Assembly (NCBI GenBank): GCA_905178155.1
Contig: CAJINV010000001.1
Coordinates: 16,182,142 to 16,246,141, forward strand
DNA: 64,000 bases
From: Amoebophrya sp. A120
Taxonomy: Eukaryota; Protista; Dinoflagellata
Reading direction: 5' to 3'
Translations under genes and position numbers: made by a program
In this document: positions 1,033 through 50,500 of the stretch, one piece after another
How positions within the stretch are numbered: the first letter of the stretch is position 1
Layout of the letters: every line of letters begins with the position of its first letter
Notes under the pieces: model-generated
What the model was told of the DNA's origin: nothing
Databases searched by the model: none
Seen by the model: only the letters and a program-made list of their open reading frames with translations

Positions 1033-3975
1033 GGGAGCGGATTCTTCTATAGTCAGGACTAGGAGCAGCATGAGCATGTTTCTTGATGTTTCTGAGAATG
1101 TGCGTCGTGCTAAAATAGATAGTACTTACACAGGGCTTGCTCGAGAAGTAGAAATTTGTTTCGAGTACTGCGCGAGGTTGTGAACAATATACGTCTGCTC
1201 TACGTAGAGATAGAGATAAGAGGTGGAACGACATGATATATGACCAAGCAGCAGTAAGAAGGCTCTGTTTTGCGGAGTATGAGTATGCACGACATAGTGC
1301 TATGAGAAAGTAGTACAGTAAAACATCAGTAGTCGACCGAACATGATATTCAAAAGAAAATTTTCTAAGCACCTAATTTTATCACGATGAGAATCGGAAT
1401 TCTTTGTAAACTGGTGTGTAGTAGTTGGGGTACTTTTATTTGTTATGACTTCTCATCCTAGACAAGCACAAGAATCTGCAAAGGTCGAAAGAAGAACCTG
1501 TCACACACTCTTTCTCTGAATGAATTCACCGCATTTTTCCGTACAAAGACACCAATTCGCCACAGAAGTCTTACAACCACATGCGCAGAATGATAGCACT
1601 ATTTCCCAGTTTTTTACCCAAATATGCATGGTTTGTCCAATATGTTTTTCTAATTAAGTTTTTATTTTGAAATGTATTGAACGTAGACGTACATATTGTT
1701 TTTGCACTGATTGGTGTCCCTATCACGGTTGTTGCTGGGATAGAACCAGAGGTCCTTACGCTATGTCTCTTAACGAGTCCAGCCGAAGCCCATAAACTCC
1801 TACGTACGGCTATATGCCTAGTCCACCCTTTTTGTTTAAAGCGTAGAAGAAGTTTTACACTTCGAACCTATCCGGCGTTAGTAGGACGGTCGTTTAAAAT
1901 TTTGTTGGGCTGCCGTTGACTTTTCAGCATGCCTTAACGATGTCGCTGCCGTCCTCCTGTGCCGTATTCAACCTGATTTTTTGGCCACAACCTTCCGCCC
2001 TATTTGCTTAGCGCGGGAGCACGTTGCTGGTTCTCTTGTCAGGCCTAGTGCGTCGCTTCGAAGTTTTTTGCAATTACCACAAGAGGCAGAGACTCAAGTG
2101 AATAGCGGGGGGCAGGAGGTTACTAACTTCCATGCGCAGTCTACTTTCTGGCTGCAGCAGAAATTTACAGTATGTATGTTTAGACGTCCAATGTGAATGT
2201 ATGTTTAGATCTTTATTTCGTGACGATTTACCCCGTTTTTATTGCAGTGTGCCGCGCGGGATTTTCTTTGTGCCGGTGAATTGAGCATTGTCACTATGTT
2301 TTTGATCCCAAGCCTGTGGACATTCACTGAATGCGTCGGCAGCTGGTGATCGAACATTTTTACTCTATGCCTACACTAAGACAACTTCGATACTCGGCAT
2401 CTACTTTTCGGCTACACAAATACGTTTTCGAAGATGAGCGTTGGTGTTCTGTAGGATAAGACAACTAGATATTTTCCGGACAAGATGAAATATGAATGCT
2501 CTATACTTTTGAAATGAAACGAAAGATAGAAAGCCAAAAATATTTTTATCGGGGGTATTCCACCAGCTCGAAAGCAAACAGGTAGTAGAGGTAAACATTC
2601 TTGTTGCCAAGGCCTGTAGGGCTCCTTGAAATTGATTTTGTGAGGGGCATTGACGTAAGACAATTTTAATTTGTTACGTAGACCAACGTCCTCACAGGAC
2701 AACGAATGGCTGAAAACAACTCGGGGTACAGTACCGAAAAGTTGTAGAAGAAATCAGCTATTCCTATTCCGCTTGAGGAGTGCTGCTGCACGTATGTAAG
2801 ATTCGGCTTCAAGCGGACGTCCACTTTTGCGACGCCGGTTTGGCTACTACAGATACAGTTTCGTTTCAGAAGATAGTAAGTTTCCATTGAAGCACACTAG
2901 ATGCTTGCCAAGTAAAAATCAATGTCCGGAGAAGTAGAAATAATAAGAAGTAATCCGACAGAACAACATTTAGGAACATACGAAGTCGGTCAAAAGTAGA
3001 ACAAAAATAATGACGTCGCCCCTCTCACTGACAGCGCCGCCGCAGCACGGGTAACCGCGTAGCCTCGTCGTGGAGTTAGATAGAAGGCCGCGGATAGCAA
3101 AAACTATAGTAAGAGTAAGAAAGAAAGTAAAGAAACCGGGCCAATAAATAATAGAGAAATAGCGCATAGATTAGCTTATACACTCCACCCGCGCCCGCCG
3201 TGGTCGTGACCTTCGTGCCGTGATCGAGCGACGCGACAAGGGCCTGCGTTTTTCTTAGGGACGAGGGCGCCGGACATGTCAGTGAGAGGAACCCGTGGGC
3301 TTGTCCTTATCGATCTTTTGTCGTTCCCCTGGTTATTCCTTTGATTCCACCCATGCTATCTTTCTTTGTGCATCAGCACAGCCAGCGTGCTCGAGAACAT
3401 CGCCCCTCTTAACGACGTCGGATGTGGACGCGCCTACACGCGCGACAGAAGGACCTCCGCCAACGACGGGGGAGGGTCAACCGAGGATCGACGACGGGGG
3501 AGCTTTCATTCTGTACTACGTCGGAGCGGGCGACGTTTTTATAATATCATCATGCTGCACTACTTCATTTCGACGGTGGAGGGATTGGGAGTCCTCCACT
3601 GCGGGCTTCAGCCTACAGGTAACTCTGTTGCTTCGCCCTCACAACCATTCGACACAGTAGTGGCTCACTTCTTCTCGACGAACAGGCGTGGCGTCTGGGC
3701 ACTCTGGCAACGGGCTTCGGTCTCGACCCTGTTGTGTGCCAGCGCTACAACTCCAAACTTTGCGCCCCGAGCCATCTGAGTGGTTTGACACGCATCGCGG
3801 TGTAGTAGCTAGTATGTTGCGTTGTCTCTCCATCGGAAATTACGACATCAAGTGAAGACGCACAGCAAGCGGACACAACTACTGCCGCGGATCCAGCGAG
3901 CCACTACACTCAAGCGGCCTGCGACACCATGGGGGCGCTTGCAGTACAGACCGGCAGTTGGGCTTTGAGCAAGGA

Positions 3976-4060: not shown

Positions 4061-4911
4061 TTAGGGTATACCTACAAGCAGCGTTACAAGTTCAAAGGCA
4101 GAAAAGTTTTCGTACAAGAATCTAGCACGTAATATGAGGATGATACAATACACAGGGTTTAGGAAAAAAGTCTGTGTTCAGACTTGGCGCGCTAGTTCGA
4201 CTTTTGTTTCATTACAAGACCACTATGCGTGGCCCGCACTGCATACACGCACCGGGAAGCAATAGTCTTATTAGTGTAGTGTTATGGTGGAGGGTTAACT
4301 GCTCTGCGGTGCCCGAGTCTGTCGAACACAAGTAGTCGTACTTGGCGCAAGTTTTAGGCGCTACGCTACTCGCCACACCGCACCCGTACCCGTACCCTTT
4401 GAAAGGCATGCCTGCGTGTGACGGACCAGAAGTGGCGTAGTTCTGTTCAAAAGGTTGTAATCCCGGATGCTGCGATAGACTTTTATTGTCTGGTCGGCGC
4501 CACTGTGAAAACACGCATAGAAAATGATGGGTTCAGGGATTTACTTACAAGGCAGCGCTACTAGCACCAGAAGAACAAAACTTCCACGGGGAAAGCACTT
4601 CTACACTAATATGAGGATGATACACTAGACAGGGTTTAGGGAAAAAAGTCTGTGATCAGGCTTGGCGCGCTAGTTCGACTATTGTTTCATTACAAGACCA
4701 CTGCTGGTGGCCCGCACTGCATACATGCATCGGGAAGTAATAGTCTTATTAGTGTAGTACTTTGGCGGAGGTGCGTAACACCACCCGAGTCGGGTACAAG
4801 TGGTTGTACTAGGCACAATGATTAGGTGCTACACTACTCGCCACGCACGCCCATACCATACCATACAGATCTACGGTTCGTCTTGCTTGGCTAGTCAACT
4901 GCGAAAACATG
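4060..4911. repeat. Diverged tandem duplication, unit ~480 bp (copy 1 ~4060-4515, copy 2 ~4531-4911)
   Basis: A highly similar core TAATATGAGGATGATACA...GGGTTTAGG...GGCGCGCTAGTTCGACT...TTACAAGACCACT...AATAGTCTTATTAGTGTAGT starts at ~4130 and ~4607; weaker similarity extends on both sides. Confidence 0.9.
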
Positions 4912-20832: not shown

Positions 20833-22935
20833 ATGTTGTCCACGTTGCGATCCGCGGGTCTCCGAGGTGCGAGCCGGCAGGCCGGGAGTGCGATGCGCAC
20901 TGGCGCCCTTACACGGTTGAATGCGGTACTTGCTCCTTCATCGCAGAACGCGTGCAGTAGCTGTCGTAACGGATGCGCGGCATGCAGCAGCGTGGCGCGA
21001 GCTTTCTCTTCTGCCGCAGTGAAGAAGCTTCAGACAGGTTTGTGAAGAGAAAAAACAATAATGCTTTAAGTAGACTTCTCGACCCGCAGAGCTTTAGCAT
21101 CCCCGCCTGGCTGTTTCATCCCCTTGCATACGGATTTTATCGTTTTAGGAGCTACAACTACTGAATTATACGCACTCACCTTTTGTTGATGTTTTCATGA
21201 GGTTTCCTAAACCTACATGCGAAGGAATTTAGTCGTGTTGCTATCCACCAAAACCAGGTTTGGCGCAGGAGCTCCAGCACGAGAAGGACAACTATGAGAA
21301 ACCCGCAGAGCTTTCTAAGGTGCCAGCCGGATGGAACTTCACAGAGGATGCAGGAAACGTGAACATGAAGCTCGAGAAGACGCTTGGTAGTGCAGTCTTT
21401 TTTCACGGACAGTGTTTTTTCTCTCGTGGGAAGTACGTATTTTATACACCTACATGCACAGTCTTCAGATCCTACTTTGGTCTACTTTTATGTTAGCGCC
21501 TCTCTATTCAGATGCACCTCTTGATGCCATCTTGAAAAAAACAGCTGGTGACCGAGTGTGTAAGGTTGAGTGGCAGCTGGTGAGCCCGCCAATGGCTTAC
21601 GAGGACGATCCGGAGTATCAGGAGGGGGAGACCCCTATGGATTGCAAAAGTGTCTGGGTCTGGAAGATTGCAACTTGTCATGGTAAATCTGAAGCATGCA
21701 AAAATCTGTTTTGCATGAGCGGCAAAAGCTGTCCACTTTTGACCAAGTTGGAAGGGAGTTTCTCATGCAGGACAGGCATGGCGGAGACTTCGCAGAGTCT
21801 GTCATGCTAAGTCCCGCATTCCAGACCTCATGGGTCATGGAAAATCTGCATGACAAGTCTACACTCTTCCAGACCCAGACATTTTTACATTTGATAACCC
21901 CAGAGGAGCCGACGGAAGTGGAGCTCACCGTCACCGTGGAAACCAAGGATGGAGCCGAAGGTACTTACAACTTCGAACACTTATTTCGACGTGGGAGCAT
22001 ACTTCTACTTGTTTAAGCCTCGTCACGAAACGTCCTTGTAGCAGGAGCCAGACTTCTTGCTTTTTTTTTCATTCGTTTGAGTGCAAACAAGCATGCTGAT
22101 ACTGCATCAAAGGTTTGACGTATTTCTGCTCGACGTCGAGCATGGAGGGGGCGAAGGAAGGTCCCAAAACGTCGCTTTCCATCGGGAACTTGAAGACGTG
22201 GAGCTCCGTCGAGGAGCGCGACAATGCCGCAGCTTACAACGGTCCGGAGTTCGATGACCTGGATGACCGATTGCAGGAGGCCATGGAAGAATACCTCGGT
22301 ACTACACATACAATGGGAGCTGCGCATTTTCTCTGATTGTGCTAGAAAATTATTCGTATGAAAATGAAAATGTTCTCAATCAGTGCATGATGGGATGATT
22401 GTCGTGTTGCAGAAGTAGCTCGATTTACGTCGACTTTATGAACCCCACCATCTAGAAATGCAAATGATTCGACATCACAAATTGAATGAAAACAGCGGAA
22501 ATCGGAGTCTCGGAGGAGGTACAGGAGTTTGTCAATGCAAGTGCTGCGGACAAGGAGCAGCGCGAATACATGCGGTGGATGGAGAATCTGAACAAGTTCG
22601 TCAAGGTATTGTGAGGAAAAATCCCCCCTCCCCATATTGAAATATTTCGTCTGAAAATTTGTGATGCAGATTTGAGGTGACAAATCCTGTCTGTCTTGCA
22701 AGAAGGCAAAGCCAGAGAATCCGCCGCATTATGCCGGCGGTTTGTGATGCGGTTGGGCTTACAGAGCCGACATCTGTCACGCTAGTCCCCTACGTCAAAA
22801 CCTCTCGACCCAGGCTTGGCATATGCCTGCAGTCCTCTCCAGCAAGACAGGCCTGATTTGTGTACGCAAATCCAGCATCAGAAACTTCGTTTCGATATGG
22901 GGAGGGGGGATTTTTCCCTTTGATGCAAGGCCTAG
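20833..22935 (+). CDS. MAM33: Mitochondrial acidic matrix glycoprotein MAM33/p32 (C1QBP family); exons 20833-21037, 21258-21386, 21545-~21635, ~21902-21960, 22113-22298, 22496-22605, probably 22930-22935
   Basis: Arg/Ser/Ala-rich transit peptide ending RAFSS; LAQELQHEKDNYE; YNGPEFDDLDDRLQEAMEEYLAEIGV; DKEQREYMRWMENLNKFVK. Confidence 0.92.
21636..21896. mobile_element. MITE-like introner occupying MAM33 intron 3
   Basis: ~47-bp imperfect terminal inverted repeat with perfect 17-bp core TGTCTGGGTCTGGAAGA (21651-21667 and 21865-21881); flanking 5-bp direct repeat ACCCC (21631-21635, 21897-21901). Confidence 0.85.
22606..22926. mobile_element. Second, unrelated MITE-like introner at the 3' end of the MAM33 CDS
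   Basis: Perfect 23-bp inverted core GGAAAAATCCCCCCTCCCCATAT (22615-22637 and 22895-22917); imperfect pairing extends ~100 bp inward; flanking direct repeat AAG (22603-22605, 22927-22929). Confidence 0.85.
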
Positions 22936-25525: not shown

Positions 25526-26783
25526 ATGTACGCCAAGTTTGGGAATTTCGCGAGCAGCATCGCGCAGACGGGACAACGGTTTTCGTGGCAGAGATGTAGG
25601 TACATGGCGCAGCAGTGGCGGGATCGCTGGTCGTGGTACCGCTTCTGGCAAATCAGGTACGGATCTTCCTCGAACGCATAAGCTGCACTGTAGACATTTT
25701 TGCACTTTGAGTGCGCTCTGGTGAAGATGCAAATACCTCTGTGAGTCGTGTTAATATGTAGTGAGGTCACCGAACGGTTCTAACCAGGGAGTTTTTTTGA
25801 CAGCCAGACAGCAAAACGGCCGTCAGTTTTCAAGCGGCCGGAAGCGTTTTTTGACATAAAAAATTTCCAATTATCAAGCGGGCGGGGCTTTGAAGTCAAA
25901 CAAGCCCGGTCGAAAACTATCGATTCGCACTTGATAAAACGACGCAGGGGAGCCGGCAAAAGGGGCGCCCTTCTGAGGCGCCCACCGCCTTGATTTCTGG
26001 CGGTTTGGGCCGCCAAAAAAGGGGCACGCAAAAAACTCGCCCAAAATCAGAACAGCGAAACAGCATGGCACGGCCGCGATTTCGGAGCATTTTGGGCGGC
26101 CGCGAAAGCGGCCGCCTTTTCGCCGGTTTCAGAGCCTGGGAAGCTTTGCAAAAAGCGCCGGCGAGGAAAATAAAGACGCAAAAAAGAAAAAGCGCGCCAG
26201 ACGCGCAGAGCCAATCCGCATGCTACGGGCCCGATTTTTCCTCGCTTTTTGGACGCCCCCCGTGGCGCCCGGATCGGCCCCATAGCATGGGGGCTGGCTT
26301 TCGGAAAGGAATTTCGGAAATTTGCCAAAATTTGCGACGCTTACCAAGCGGCCGCCATACCGTGCGGCCTAACGTTACTCACGGCGGTATGGCGAGCCCA
26401 GAAAAAGCAAAGCCGCGGCCAAGGCGACGGCCGGCAAGAAAACGCCCACGACCTCACTACCCCCGCCCCGGCGGCTATATTTGGTTTGCTATTGGATCTT
26501 TTTCCGTAGGCGATGAATGATTTTCTCTGAAGCGGAATGTTGCTTTGGGCGATTATATCACAGAGAAAATTTCTGGGAAGGATGTACTTACGTGATCATC
26601 GGGGGGTGCGTCCTCTGCAGCGCCTTCTCGTTGTTCGAGGTCCTGCGGCTACAGCGCAACAACATCCAGCGCATGTGGATTGCGTACGTGCGGAAGGAGC
26701 GCGAGCGGTCCGAGTTGATGGAAATCATCAAGCAGGCACGTGCTGCGGGCCTCATACCGCCCACCGAAAACGAAATGCAGTGA
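25526..26783 (+). CDS. Small (~116 aa) single-TM protein, possibly mitochondrial; exons 25526-25656, 26564-26783
   Basis: MYAKFGNFASS...WSWYRFWQIR joins in frame through GT-AG intron 25657-26563 to ENFWEGCTYVIIGGCVLCSAFSLFEVL...; strong coding-like codon usage. Confidence 0.7.
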
Positions 26784-47500: not shown

Positions 47501-50500
47501 GCCACCCCCGGTGGCGAGGCGGAGCAGTGGGCGGGCAGCTGCACCTGGTTCGAATCAGGGGTGGCCCGGCTCAAATGTGGTGCCGCAAGGTCCACCATCC
47601 GGCATGGGGGTGGTCCGTGCGCCCTCCGCTGCGCCCGGGTCGCAACAATCTCCGATCATGTCTCCATCCAATCCCTCGGTCTTGCGGAATTCCAGCAGGG
47701 GCCTAAAACAGCTCGCAACGCCTACGGAGGCCGAAAAGGTGTCTTTACGTCCGACCACACGCAATGTAACGGAGCTAAATCACGACGGCATACCAGGAGA
47801 ACGAGCTATGTCACTGCGCACTGGCGCGGGGCAAAACGAATACTCGCCAAAACCGTCCGTCCTGGAGGGGATGCCAAACCTCAGGTAATCATACGATATT
47901 TCTTCATTGATGAAATTCATGTAAGTAGTATTTTCCCACGTTGGGTTCGATTTTTCACAGACGAGACCTTTTATTCGGAGCTCATTTTTCACATTACGAT
48001 TACGAACTGAGCCGGACGAAATTTCTTGTGCTTGATCCATGTTTCAGGAATTTTTGGATCTTTTTTGCTTACTGTCTGCGATGTTCCTTGTGAAGCCTGG
48101 GTTCACTTTGTCTTTTTTGATCACCTGACCCTGAGCAAACTTCAACGCAAATGACGATCACTGACAGGCCGACGGACAGGATACACAGGAGTATTGACGA
48201 CGAGGCACAGTATCCGCGAGCCCATTCTCTGCGCCCCGTCGAGGTCTCACCTAATGCGTCGGCGATCGCTTCGGAGCAGGACGGGCGGCGAAATTTGTCT
48301 TTGCGCAGCGTGTTCCCGAAGCTAACCGGAATGATGCAACAGCGCCCGTCCGCGACCGAGAGTCCCTTTCACAACGCTCCAGCGCTGAAGGAGCGCTTTC
48401 TTTCTCTGAAACAGTCCCTTCTGGGAAAAGACCCCACAGCTGATGCCGATAGAAATGGAGGCCCCGGGGGGCGGCGGAAGTGGCGCATCATTGCTCTAAT
48501 GGGTGCTGCCATGCGGGGCCTCGGGCGCGTCGCCGTCGGCATCGACGAGATTGCGCCTGAGCAAGCAACTCATAAGCAAGAAGCGAACGCCCAGGACGAT
48601 CTCCCGTCTGGACCGCCGCAAATGCGAAACCAGACGTTATCAGGTGACGCCGCGTTTGTGCCAGAATCTCTACGAGAGAGCATGCCGCCCGGTACAAATC
48701 AATTGGTTTCTGGAAAGTAAATGAGTTTATCTTTTTTCCGCTTATCTTGCTTATCTAGATTCATGCTACTGTGAGGCTGGGAAGACGACATTCATTTCGC
48801 ATGCTCAGTATCCATGAGGATGCAAAATAAAATTCGGATTTCATACGAAAACGACAGACGCGAAGATCACGGTGCGAGAGAGGATTCGCACGAACCGAGG
48901 CGTGGTCGGGGGAAGCGTTAGACAGTTAGCTACGCAGTTCGAGGAGCGCGACTTGAATCCGTACCCTGAGCTATCGCTGTGAAAAAAGTGTACCCGGAGT
49001 GCCATGTTTGCATTGTCGCATTTGAAGGATATTAGCAGTTACAGCTGATCTCTGTTTTCTCCGAGGAGGACCTTCTCCTTCGGTCTGCTTTTCGAGATTA
49101 TAGCACCCCGGGCACAGTTTTCATAGCGATATCAGCCTCGCGCACCCCGGTCTACGCGTGCCTCTGTAGCCTCGGTCGGGAATACCGCTGACGGGCTTGC
49201 CATGTTGGCCGGTGCCCTGCAAAATGACGCTTTGGCGCGCAGCTCGACCGGCTCCTCGCTCGCAAGCCAAACGCTGGTTGCGGACGCGGCGGCTCGGGCG
49301 AGCCAGGCCCTGGCCCGCGATGCCGATCGGCCTTCCCGTGGTGGCAGCCCGATTCTGCACAAGCAGCTGACGCACGGTGCGCCATCGCTTGCCGATATCA
49401 GTGCCGCTCTTGACGAAGTCCAGAAGAGGAGCTCTTTGACGTCCGCCGAACGGTATGAAAGCGGTTTGGTGGTTTGGTTCGAAAACTCAGCCAAAAACGG
49501 ATCTTTTGTTTTGGCATTGGGTATGTACATCAATCATGCAAGTACAACTTGAGGACGAATTAATTTCATGGGACATCAGTGGCGTAAGTACAGCTGCACC
49601 GCATCAGCTCACATATTATATTTGCAATCAACAACCCAAAGTCGAGCTCCCTGCGACGTTGGTTGTCGTTTCTAGGTACACTTTCGCATTTCCGTACCTT
49701 TAAGTGTAATATCATCATGAAAGAAATAAAGGATGCCATCGAGCTAAATAAGGACTATGGGTGGGCACACAACAGAGTGAATCGGGAAAAAAAAAAGAGC
49801 AAAAGATCCCGGTTATACACTTGACGTTTTTGCAACCGTGAGATTTTCGTTGCATAGAAGGATGACGAACTCGAACGGGACCTCCAACGCCAGTGGGTCA
49901 GGAGTGTTTTCCAAGGCGACGACGGGGTTGCTAAGCAGCCTCAAGGCCAACGCGGCAAAGGTCTCCGGACAGTTCGCAAAGCTGACGACCCGCGATCGTC
50001 TCACGGACCAACGCGATCGGCTCACGGACCAGCAGAGTTTGATTAAGATGTCGCGGCAGAGCCCTTCTCCTCTGCCGCATGCGGATGTTGACGCCGATGC
50101 GGCGGTCGCCGCGTTTGAAAACCAATTTGCCATGACCCCGGCGGCACAGGCTGCGTTTGCGGAAGAGAACTACGTGCAACTGGCTGAAGTGACAGGGCCA
50201 CTGGCCTCCACGAACGCGCCAACCAGCGCCGCCTTCGGCGGCTCCGCTTCTGCGCACGAGCCGGTCTCGTTGGGTGACGTGATCGAGGGAAATTATGACT
50301 CTGGCAGCCCAGGGCAACTACAAGGCTACAACCCGTATCGCGGCTGGACGGGGTACTACAAGGGGCCGGCGCTTCCGGGCTTCGGCAAGGGGGGCGGGGG
50401 AGGCCCAATCAGCGCAGGCAGTCCCGACTACTCAGCTGGGAATGGGATGGGAGCAGTCGCTGCTGCAGAAGAGCCGCAGTCGGAACACCAGTTTGTCGTG

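What the first reader, a model, noticed from the sequence alone, without database searches (positions are those of the whole stretch)
22603..22935. Second unrelated TIR element whose target duplication supplies the AG acceptor (introner 2)
Seen: a 321-bp element with a perfect 23-bp inverted core and ~100 bp of imperfect arms. It starts with GT right after ...GTCAAG and is followed by a duplicated AAG. Intron 22606-22929 is therefore GT-AG and restores KFVK-A-stop exactly. Unspliced, the frame ends KFVK-V-L-stop, so the insertion is nearly neutral either way. Inference: a snapshot of intron birth, from a different family than the element 700 bp upstream in the same gene.
Basis: partly seen in the sequence, partly recalled or inferred. 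Interest (0 to 1): 0.72.

Follow-up and report, generated by a model that had tools for sequence, protein, structure and literature searches.

The report
Known parasite introner, GT-AG by chance
This 319-base jumping-DNA copy near the end of a mitochondrial-protein gene is missing from assembled likely-RNA contigs and belongs to an already published class of transposon-born introns, likely of the marine parasite Amoebophrya; its normal-looking GT-AG ends both come from a 5-base insertion scar and are likely a coincidence, so the finding is ordinary.

Summary
Real and spliced, but mis-measured and already known. The perfect 23-bp inverted core is there, and contigs of two likely-RNA runs (one sample) skip exactly 324 nt, so the MAM33 frame ends KFVKA-stop. 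The duplication is 5 bp (CAAGG), not AAG. The element is 319 bp and starts TAT, not GT, so the scar supplies the donor G as well as the AG. A closely related assembly gave 83 full-length copies: 67 have an exact 5-bp duplication, 1 a 3-bp one. The upstream element is another family but shares the same ends and scar length, and is spliced with no GT-AG placement possible. GT-AG is placeable in 10 of 175 oriented elements, against 3.7% expected, so it is likely incidental here. The anatomy matches the published Amoebophrya A120 introner elements (PMC7789003, PMC12130899). No empty site and no autonomous partner were found. This scan has noted the same element class many times elsewhere in this genome, with a proposed fixed cut that equals 22606-22929; I could not confirm that cut.

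The parts
22602..22606 (+). Left copy of the 5-bp target-site duplication CAAGG; its last G is the G of the GT donor
   Evidence: (both = 5)
22607..22925 (.). Non-autonomous TIR element, 319 bp, begins TAT, ends ATG (family consensus end ATA)
   Evidence: boundary also marked by loose ends of 30 contigs of X1 at the matching end of a sister copy
22615..22637 (+). Left perfect 23-bp inverted core, 8 nt inside the element end
22895..22917 (-). Right perfect 23-bp inverted core, 8 nt inside the element end
22615..22706 (+). Left imperfect arm (pairs with 22834-22917); predicted long RNA hairpin
   Evidence: z -8.15, 0 of 100 shuffles as stable
22926..22930 (+). Right copy of the duplication CAAGG; 22928-22929 is the AG
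22606..22929 (+). Intron as placed GT..AG (324 nt = element + one duplication copy); five other placements give the same mRNA
20833..22935 (+). Host gene, MAM33 mitochondrial glycoprotein, six introns; transcript contig runs on to at least 23364
   Evidence: PF02330 on two exons, profile ends at the last full exon
21636..21896 (.). Upstream element of another family, TAT...ATA, 261 bp, 5-bp duplication ACCCC (21631-21635 / 21897-21901); spliced with no GT-AG placement possible

Best explanation
This is a 319-bp non-autonomous inverted-repeat element with a 5-bp insertion scar, absent together with one scar copy from likely-RNA contigs, and likely removed by the same element-guided splicing that removes its non-GT-AG relatives, its GT-AG ends being likely a chance product of the target CAAGG. 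Shown: the anatomy, the 5-bp scar across the family, the 324-nt skip, and the spliced non-GT-AG neighbour. Inferred: a transposase encoded elsewhere inserted it two codons before the MAM33 stop with a 5-nt staggered cut; the paired arms bring the ends together in the pre-mRNA; the spliceosome cuts relative to the element ends. Because every element starts with T, any target ending NNAGG yields G|T...AG, which a few percent of insertions do by chance. Untested: whether this copy also uses its GT and AG.
For: Skip of 324 nt with 5 letters fitting either side in one contig each of X3 and X5. 67 of 83 distinct full-length family copies have an exact 5-nt duplication, 78 of 83 at least 4 of 5, 1 an exact 3-nt, 0 a 4-nt. 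The upstream element is skipped in the same contigs although none of its six placements is GT-AG. Removing element + 5 leaves an open coding-like frame at 125 of 207 sites, against 38 (+6) and 26 (+4). GT-AG at the register of this copy in 2 of 56 oriented copies of this family; any GT-AG placement in 10 of 175 oriented elements of all families, 5 on the mirror strand, 3.7% expected from coding 5-mers. PMC7789003 describes A120 ends as TAT, seven variable bases, then As, with 3-5 nt repeats, also in 15% of canonical introns.
Against: The cut position inside the 5-nt repeat cannot be read from the contigs. No RNA joint across a non-GT-AG copy of this same family was shown. GT-AG placements lean to the sense strand (10 against 5), a small excess that could reflect mild selection. 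Strand calls in the related loci come from my own codon model, not RNA. The runs are 'RNA?' by the tool's guess, contigs only, and X3 and X5 are one sample. The family counts come from a related strain, picked by an exact 21-mer. The organism is inferred from the element signature, not from a protein search.
Confidence: 0.8

Rival explanations
1. Same element and 5-bp scar, but this copy is an ordinary U2 intron: the spliceosome reads the GT and AG that the scar supplies, and the element ends are irrelevant to its removal.
For: 22606-22929 is GT..AG and starts GTATTG, like other donors of the gene. The terminal A of this copy has changed to G (family consensus ATA in 78 of 83). Sense GT-AG placements 10 against 5 on the mirror strand.
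Against: 54 of 56 oriented family copies lack GT..AG at this register. The neighbour is spliced without it. G at scar position 5 is nearly strand-symmetric (24 against 20 of 56), as a target preference would be. ATG ends also occur in copies without GT-AG, such as L059 and L069.
Confidence: 0.15
2. One reading: a 321-bp element carrying its own GT donor, with a 3-bp AAG duplication that supplies the acceptor, as in Micromonas-type introners, and unrelated to the upstream element.
For: Read alone, 22606-22926 is also symmetric about the core and flanked by AAG. The interiors of the two elements do not align (scores 24 and 25, maximum 26 in 300 shuffles).
Against: Exact 3-nt duplication in 1 of 83 copies against 5-nt in 67; the base before TAT varies from copy to copy. 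Right ends of the two elements are identical at 13 of 16 positions.
Confidence: 0.02
3. The insertion persists because it is harmless unspliced (V-L for A at the C-terminus), and the transcript mostly reads into it.
For: The unspliced frame changes only the last residues. Low-depth contigs lie inside the element (depth 2.9 in X3 with no differences).
Against: The full-length contigs skip it at depth 161.7 and 253.3, and the X3 contig runs on to 23364. Most family copies with a coding call sit inside open frames.
Confidence: 0.03

Closest known systems
Introner elements of Amoebophrya sp. A120 (Farhat et al. 2021, PMC7789003; read: abstract, passages, sections 10-12 and 16, supplement legends, no figures)
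   Same: Inverted repeats at both intron ends, short direct repeat over the exon-intron boundaries, ends starting TAT then seven variable bases then As, hairpin, no transposase inside; the paper reports the same organisation in 15% of A120 canonical introns.
   Different: The inverted core here (23 bp perfect, about 100 bp imperfect) is longer than the 8-20 nt the paper quotes. The paper leaves the cut position unknown and lists no sequences that I could match.
Amoebophrya A120 TIR DNA introner families (Gozashti et al. 2025, PMC12130899; read: passages and 38 of 58 A120 rows of supplementary file 8; files 13 and 14 not searched)
   Same: fam160 and fam183 are listed with lengths of about 319-349 bp, TIRs of about 93-96 bp, a 5-bp duplication and 'co-opt both' splice sites; fam38 is annotated '5-bp TSD, TA/TA Termini'.
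   Different: Match is by length and anatomy only; no sequence comparison was possible, so the family number is not assigned.
Micromonas pusilla IE1-type introners (review PMC11282704, passages; PMC9860276, passages)
   Same: MITE-like element with TIRs whose target duplication supplies a splice site, leaving the mRNA unchanged.
   Different: Those carry one splice site, have 3-nt duplications and take the other site from the duplication; here the duplication is 5 nt, supplies both the G and the AG, and most copies have no GT-AG.

Membership tests
Amoebophrya A120-type introner element | Inverted repeats at the two intron ends able to form a hairpin | tested here: met
Amoebophrya A120-type introner element | 3-5 nt direct repeat overlapping the exon-intron boundaries | tested here: met
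   CAAGG; 67 of 83 copies exact 5 nt
Amoebophrya A120-type introner element | End motif TAT, seven less conserved bases, then at least three As | tested here: met
   Left end fits; right end has CAT for TAT; 80 and 78 of 83 copies TAT at each end, ends refined with a pattern drawn from the window's elements
Amoebophrya A120-type introner element | Repeated in the genome | tested here: met
   83 distinct full-length copies in a related assembly; 30 contigs with different flanks at the element end in X1, a run that holds the window's stretch
Amoebophrya A120-type introner element | Removed from the transcript | tested here: met
   contigs of two likely-RNA runs of one sample
Amoebophrya A120-type introner element | Host organism is Amoebophrya | not tested
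   Inferred from the end signature; no protein homologue search was run
Amoebophrya A120-type introner element | Strain-specific position (empty site in an orthologue) | not testable with these tools
   No own genome, records not searchable by handle, no window flank among the 131 loci
Micromonas-type introner (carries one splice site, 3-nt duplication) | 3-nt duplication | tested here: not met
   1 of 83 against 67 of 83 for 5 nt
Micromonas-type introner (carries one splice site, 3-nt duplication) | Element carries its own GT or GC donor | tested here: not met
   Elements begin TAT; the preceding base varies
A named DNA-transposon superfamily (Ginger-like or hAT-like) | Cognate transposase in an element with the same TIR | tested here: inconclusive
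   No long element with this TIR and an intact long frame among the loci; no transposase family among 66 frames scanned; loci reach at most 2.5 kb from the TIR

The most novel reading that the evidence does not exclude
Copies like this one, whose scar happens to write GT...AG at the very register the element dictates, are the route by which non-canonical introners turn into ordinary spliceosomal introns: once canonical signals exist, the element ends are free to decay (this copy has already lost its terminal A), and such copies would be slightly favoured. The two neighbouring elements in one gene would then be a ready-made paired test of element-guided versus GT-AG-guided splicing.
Probability: 0.15. 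Interest if true: 0.5.

Novelty: already known. Interest (0 to 1): 0.15.

Why it matters
As a single copy it matters little: PMC7789003 counts 29,850 such elements in A120 and notes canonical ones. Its use is as a control. One expressed gene holds a GT-AG and a non-GT-AG element of the same end class, which allows a direct test of whether the unknown splicing machinery reads element ends or the usual dinucleotides.

Tried and rejected
Viral contigs: 0 matches to the 21-mer. Five of the 131 metagenome loci (L014, L053, L062, L105, L113) come from other records and have the 21-mer without TAT ends; treated as chance and left out. RNA test of a 95%-identical non-GT-AG sister copy (L032): coverage was low, only 15 of 97 joints were shown and none crossed it, so no verdict. 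Raw reads X12 and X13 did not cover the exons (17 and 3 reads, on the upstream element only) and X12 laid nothing on L032, so no raw-read test. Orientation bias of this family: 20 same, 36 opposite, p 0.044 with 10 ambiguous; upstream family 17 to 14; not pursued. G-U over A-C bias on the sense strand: not seen, it ran the other way in this family. Asymmetric conservation of the two ends, as a test of the fixed-cut idea: non-TA ends 1 at the 5' side against 5 at the 3' side of 175, p 0.22; third position 5 against 2, p 0.45; inconclusive. First frame test was too weak to use (3 informative sites). Long TIR pairs in L006, L036, L042 held no frame over 137 codons. The motif was not found in the searchable supplements of the two papers, whose figures and two files I could not see.

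Full report
Observation. The perfect 23-bp inverted core lies at 22615-22637 and 22895-22917; these are the only 2 matches in the window at up to 3 mismatches, with none in 100 shuffles. Gapped arms extend to 22706 and 22834, and the transcript strand is predicted to fold into a long hairpin (-145.2 kcal/mol, z -8.15, 0 of 100 shuffles as stable). The flanking direct repeat is CAAGG at 22602-22606 and 22926-22930, 5 bp, not the 3-bp AAG of the finding. Between the repeats lie 319 bp that start TAT and end ATG.

Splicing. One contig in each of two likely-RNA runs (X3, X5; one sample; RNA is the tool's guess, but both skip all six introns of the gene) joins 22601 to 22926, a skip of 324 nt with five letters fitting either side. 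The spliced frame ends KFVKA-stop, the unspliced one KFVKVL-stop. Two exons match Pfam MAM33, and the profile ends at the last full exon. The X3 contig runs on to 23364, so the main form is not ended inside the element. Contigs inside the element have depth 2.9 to 7.3 against 161.7 and 253.3 for the spliced form; some differ in sequence and are likely other copies. The contigs cannot tell which of six placements is cut; only one, 22606-22929, is GT..AG.

Family. That assembly is a close relative, not the same strain: X1, which holds the window's stretch, covers L032 in 30 of 30 bins with scattered differences. Of 94 full-length hits, 83 were distinct. 67 have an exact 5-nt duplication, 78 at least 4 of 5, 1 an exact 3-nt and 0 a 4-nt one; 80 start TAT and 78 end ATA. 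The ends were refined by up to 4 nt with a pattern taken from the window's two elements, so the TAT counts are partly circular, but the duplication match is independent. The closest copies are 93-96% identical. In X1, 30 contigs with different flanks leave the sister copy exactly at its terminal base, and summed depth over it is 38,659-66,242 against about 28 in the flanks; this is no copy number but shows an abundant family in the window's own strain. So the element begins with T, and the scar supplies both the donor G and the AG.

Relation to the upstream element. The interiors do not align (scores 24 and 25, shuffle maximum 26), so they are different families. Their right ends agree at 13 of 16 positions, and the upstream family also has 5-nt scars (37 of 47 exact) and TAT...ATA ends. 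A general search for this end pattern found 301 distinct elements of many families in the loci, 243 with exact scars, and none in shuffled loci. The upstream element is skipped in the same contigs though none of its placements is GT-AG.

Is the GT-AG needed? I called gene strands with a codon model trained on the window (held-out confident calls right in 146 of 149, 112 of 113 and 73 of 73). Removing element plus 5 nt left an open coding-like frame at 125 of 207 sites with exact scars, against 38 and 26 for one base more or less. Of 87 copies of this family in the long loci, 56 got a strand call; 2 have GT..AG at the register of this copy, 1 on the mirror strand; the upstream family 0 of 31. 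Over all families, 175 of 254 elements got a call: any GT-AG placement in 10, mirror 5, against 3.7% expected from coding 5-mers. The slight sense excess is the main result against my reading; it is small. A direct RNA test on a non-GT-AG sister gave no verdict.

Mechanism. Shown: insertion anatomy, family-wide 5-bp scar, exact removal of element plus one scar. Inferred: insertion by a transposase from elsewhere; arm pairing in the pre-mRNA; a cut set by the element ends. Earlier notes of this scan propose a fixed cut one base before TAT and four after the end. My test of that idea by end asymmetry was inconclusive (1 against 5, p 0.22), and two oriented elements lack the A that the notes place seven bases before the cut. 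No autonomous partner turned up in loci that reach at most 2.5 kb from the TIR; earlier notes name 11-kb candidates, which I did not check.

What is known. PMC7789003 (abstract, passages, sections 10-12 and 16, supplement legends) describes A120 introner elements with inverted repeats, 3-5 nt direct repeats, TAT-seven bases-As ends, 29,850 copies in 1,954 families, and the same organisation in 15% of canonical introns; a supplement legend shows a 5-bp example. PMC12130899 (passages; 38 of 58 A120 rows of file 8) lists families of about 320 bp with TIRs near 95 bp, 5-bp duplications and 'co-opt both'. PMC9860276 and PMC11282704 (passages) describe splice sites taken from target duplications as a general introner mechanism. 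Figures and two supplementary files were not visible and might give the exact family. The organism is inferred from this match; I ran no protein search for it.

Verdict. Already known; interest 0.15.

Noticed in passing
window 21038-21257: First intron of the gene is GT-AG with an 8-nt direct repeat (CAGGTTTG) across its boundaries and no element-type ends; the fourth (21961-22112) has a 5-nt repeat AAGGT. Could be duplication-born or chance around AG|GT.
   Followed up: partly
window 48972-49131: A third element of the same end class, 160 bp, TAT...ATA, scar TGAGC / TCAGC with one mismatch; informative for the cut position if RNA were laid on it.
   Followed up: no
window 25755-26035: Repeat shared with L066 and L019 at 81-84% identity, without TAT ends; unclassified.
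   Followed up: no
window 3021-3289: 23-bp inverted repeat pair 223 nt apart, not of the TAT class.
   Followed up: no
window 4130-4844: Two-copy direct repeat with about 478-nt spacing; part (4753-4869) matches L068 at 96%.
   Followed up: no
window 1-64000: The window is poor in these elements (3 found in 64 kb) while the related loci, picked for holding one, often hold several in 5 kb. The long coding frames I used all lie on the + strand.
   Followed up: partly
window 22274-22569: X3 and X5 also hold a second, divergent MAM33-like contig, likely from another organism in the library, such as a host.
   Followed up: no
L019:2493-2784 and 4215-4476: Elements of both end types interrupt an RNA polymerase largest-subunit gene, neither with a GT-AG placement.
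   Followed up: partly
L007, L015, L016, L075: Single TIRs with no partner found within about 2.5 kb; could be ends of long elements or decayed copies.
   Followed up: partly
L032:2785-2954: One X1 contig spans the ends of two neighbouring family copies, so both insertions are shared between the two strains.
   Followed up: no
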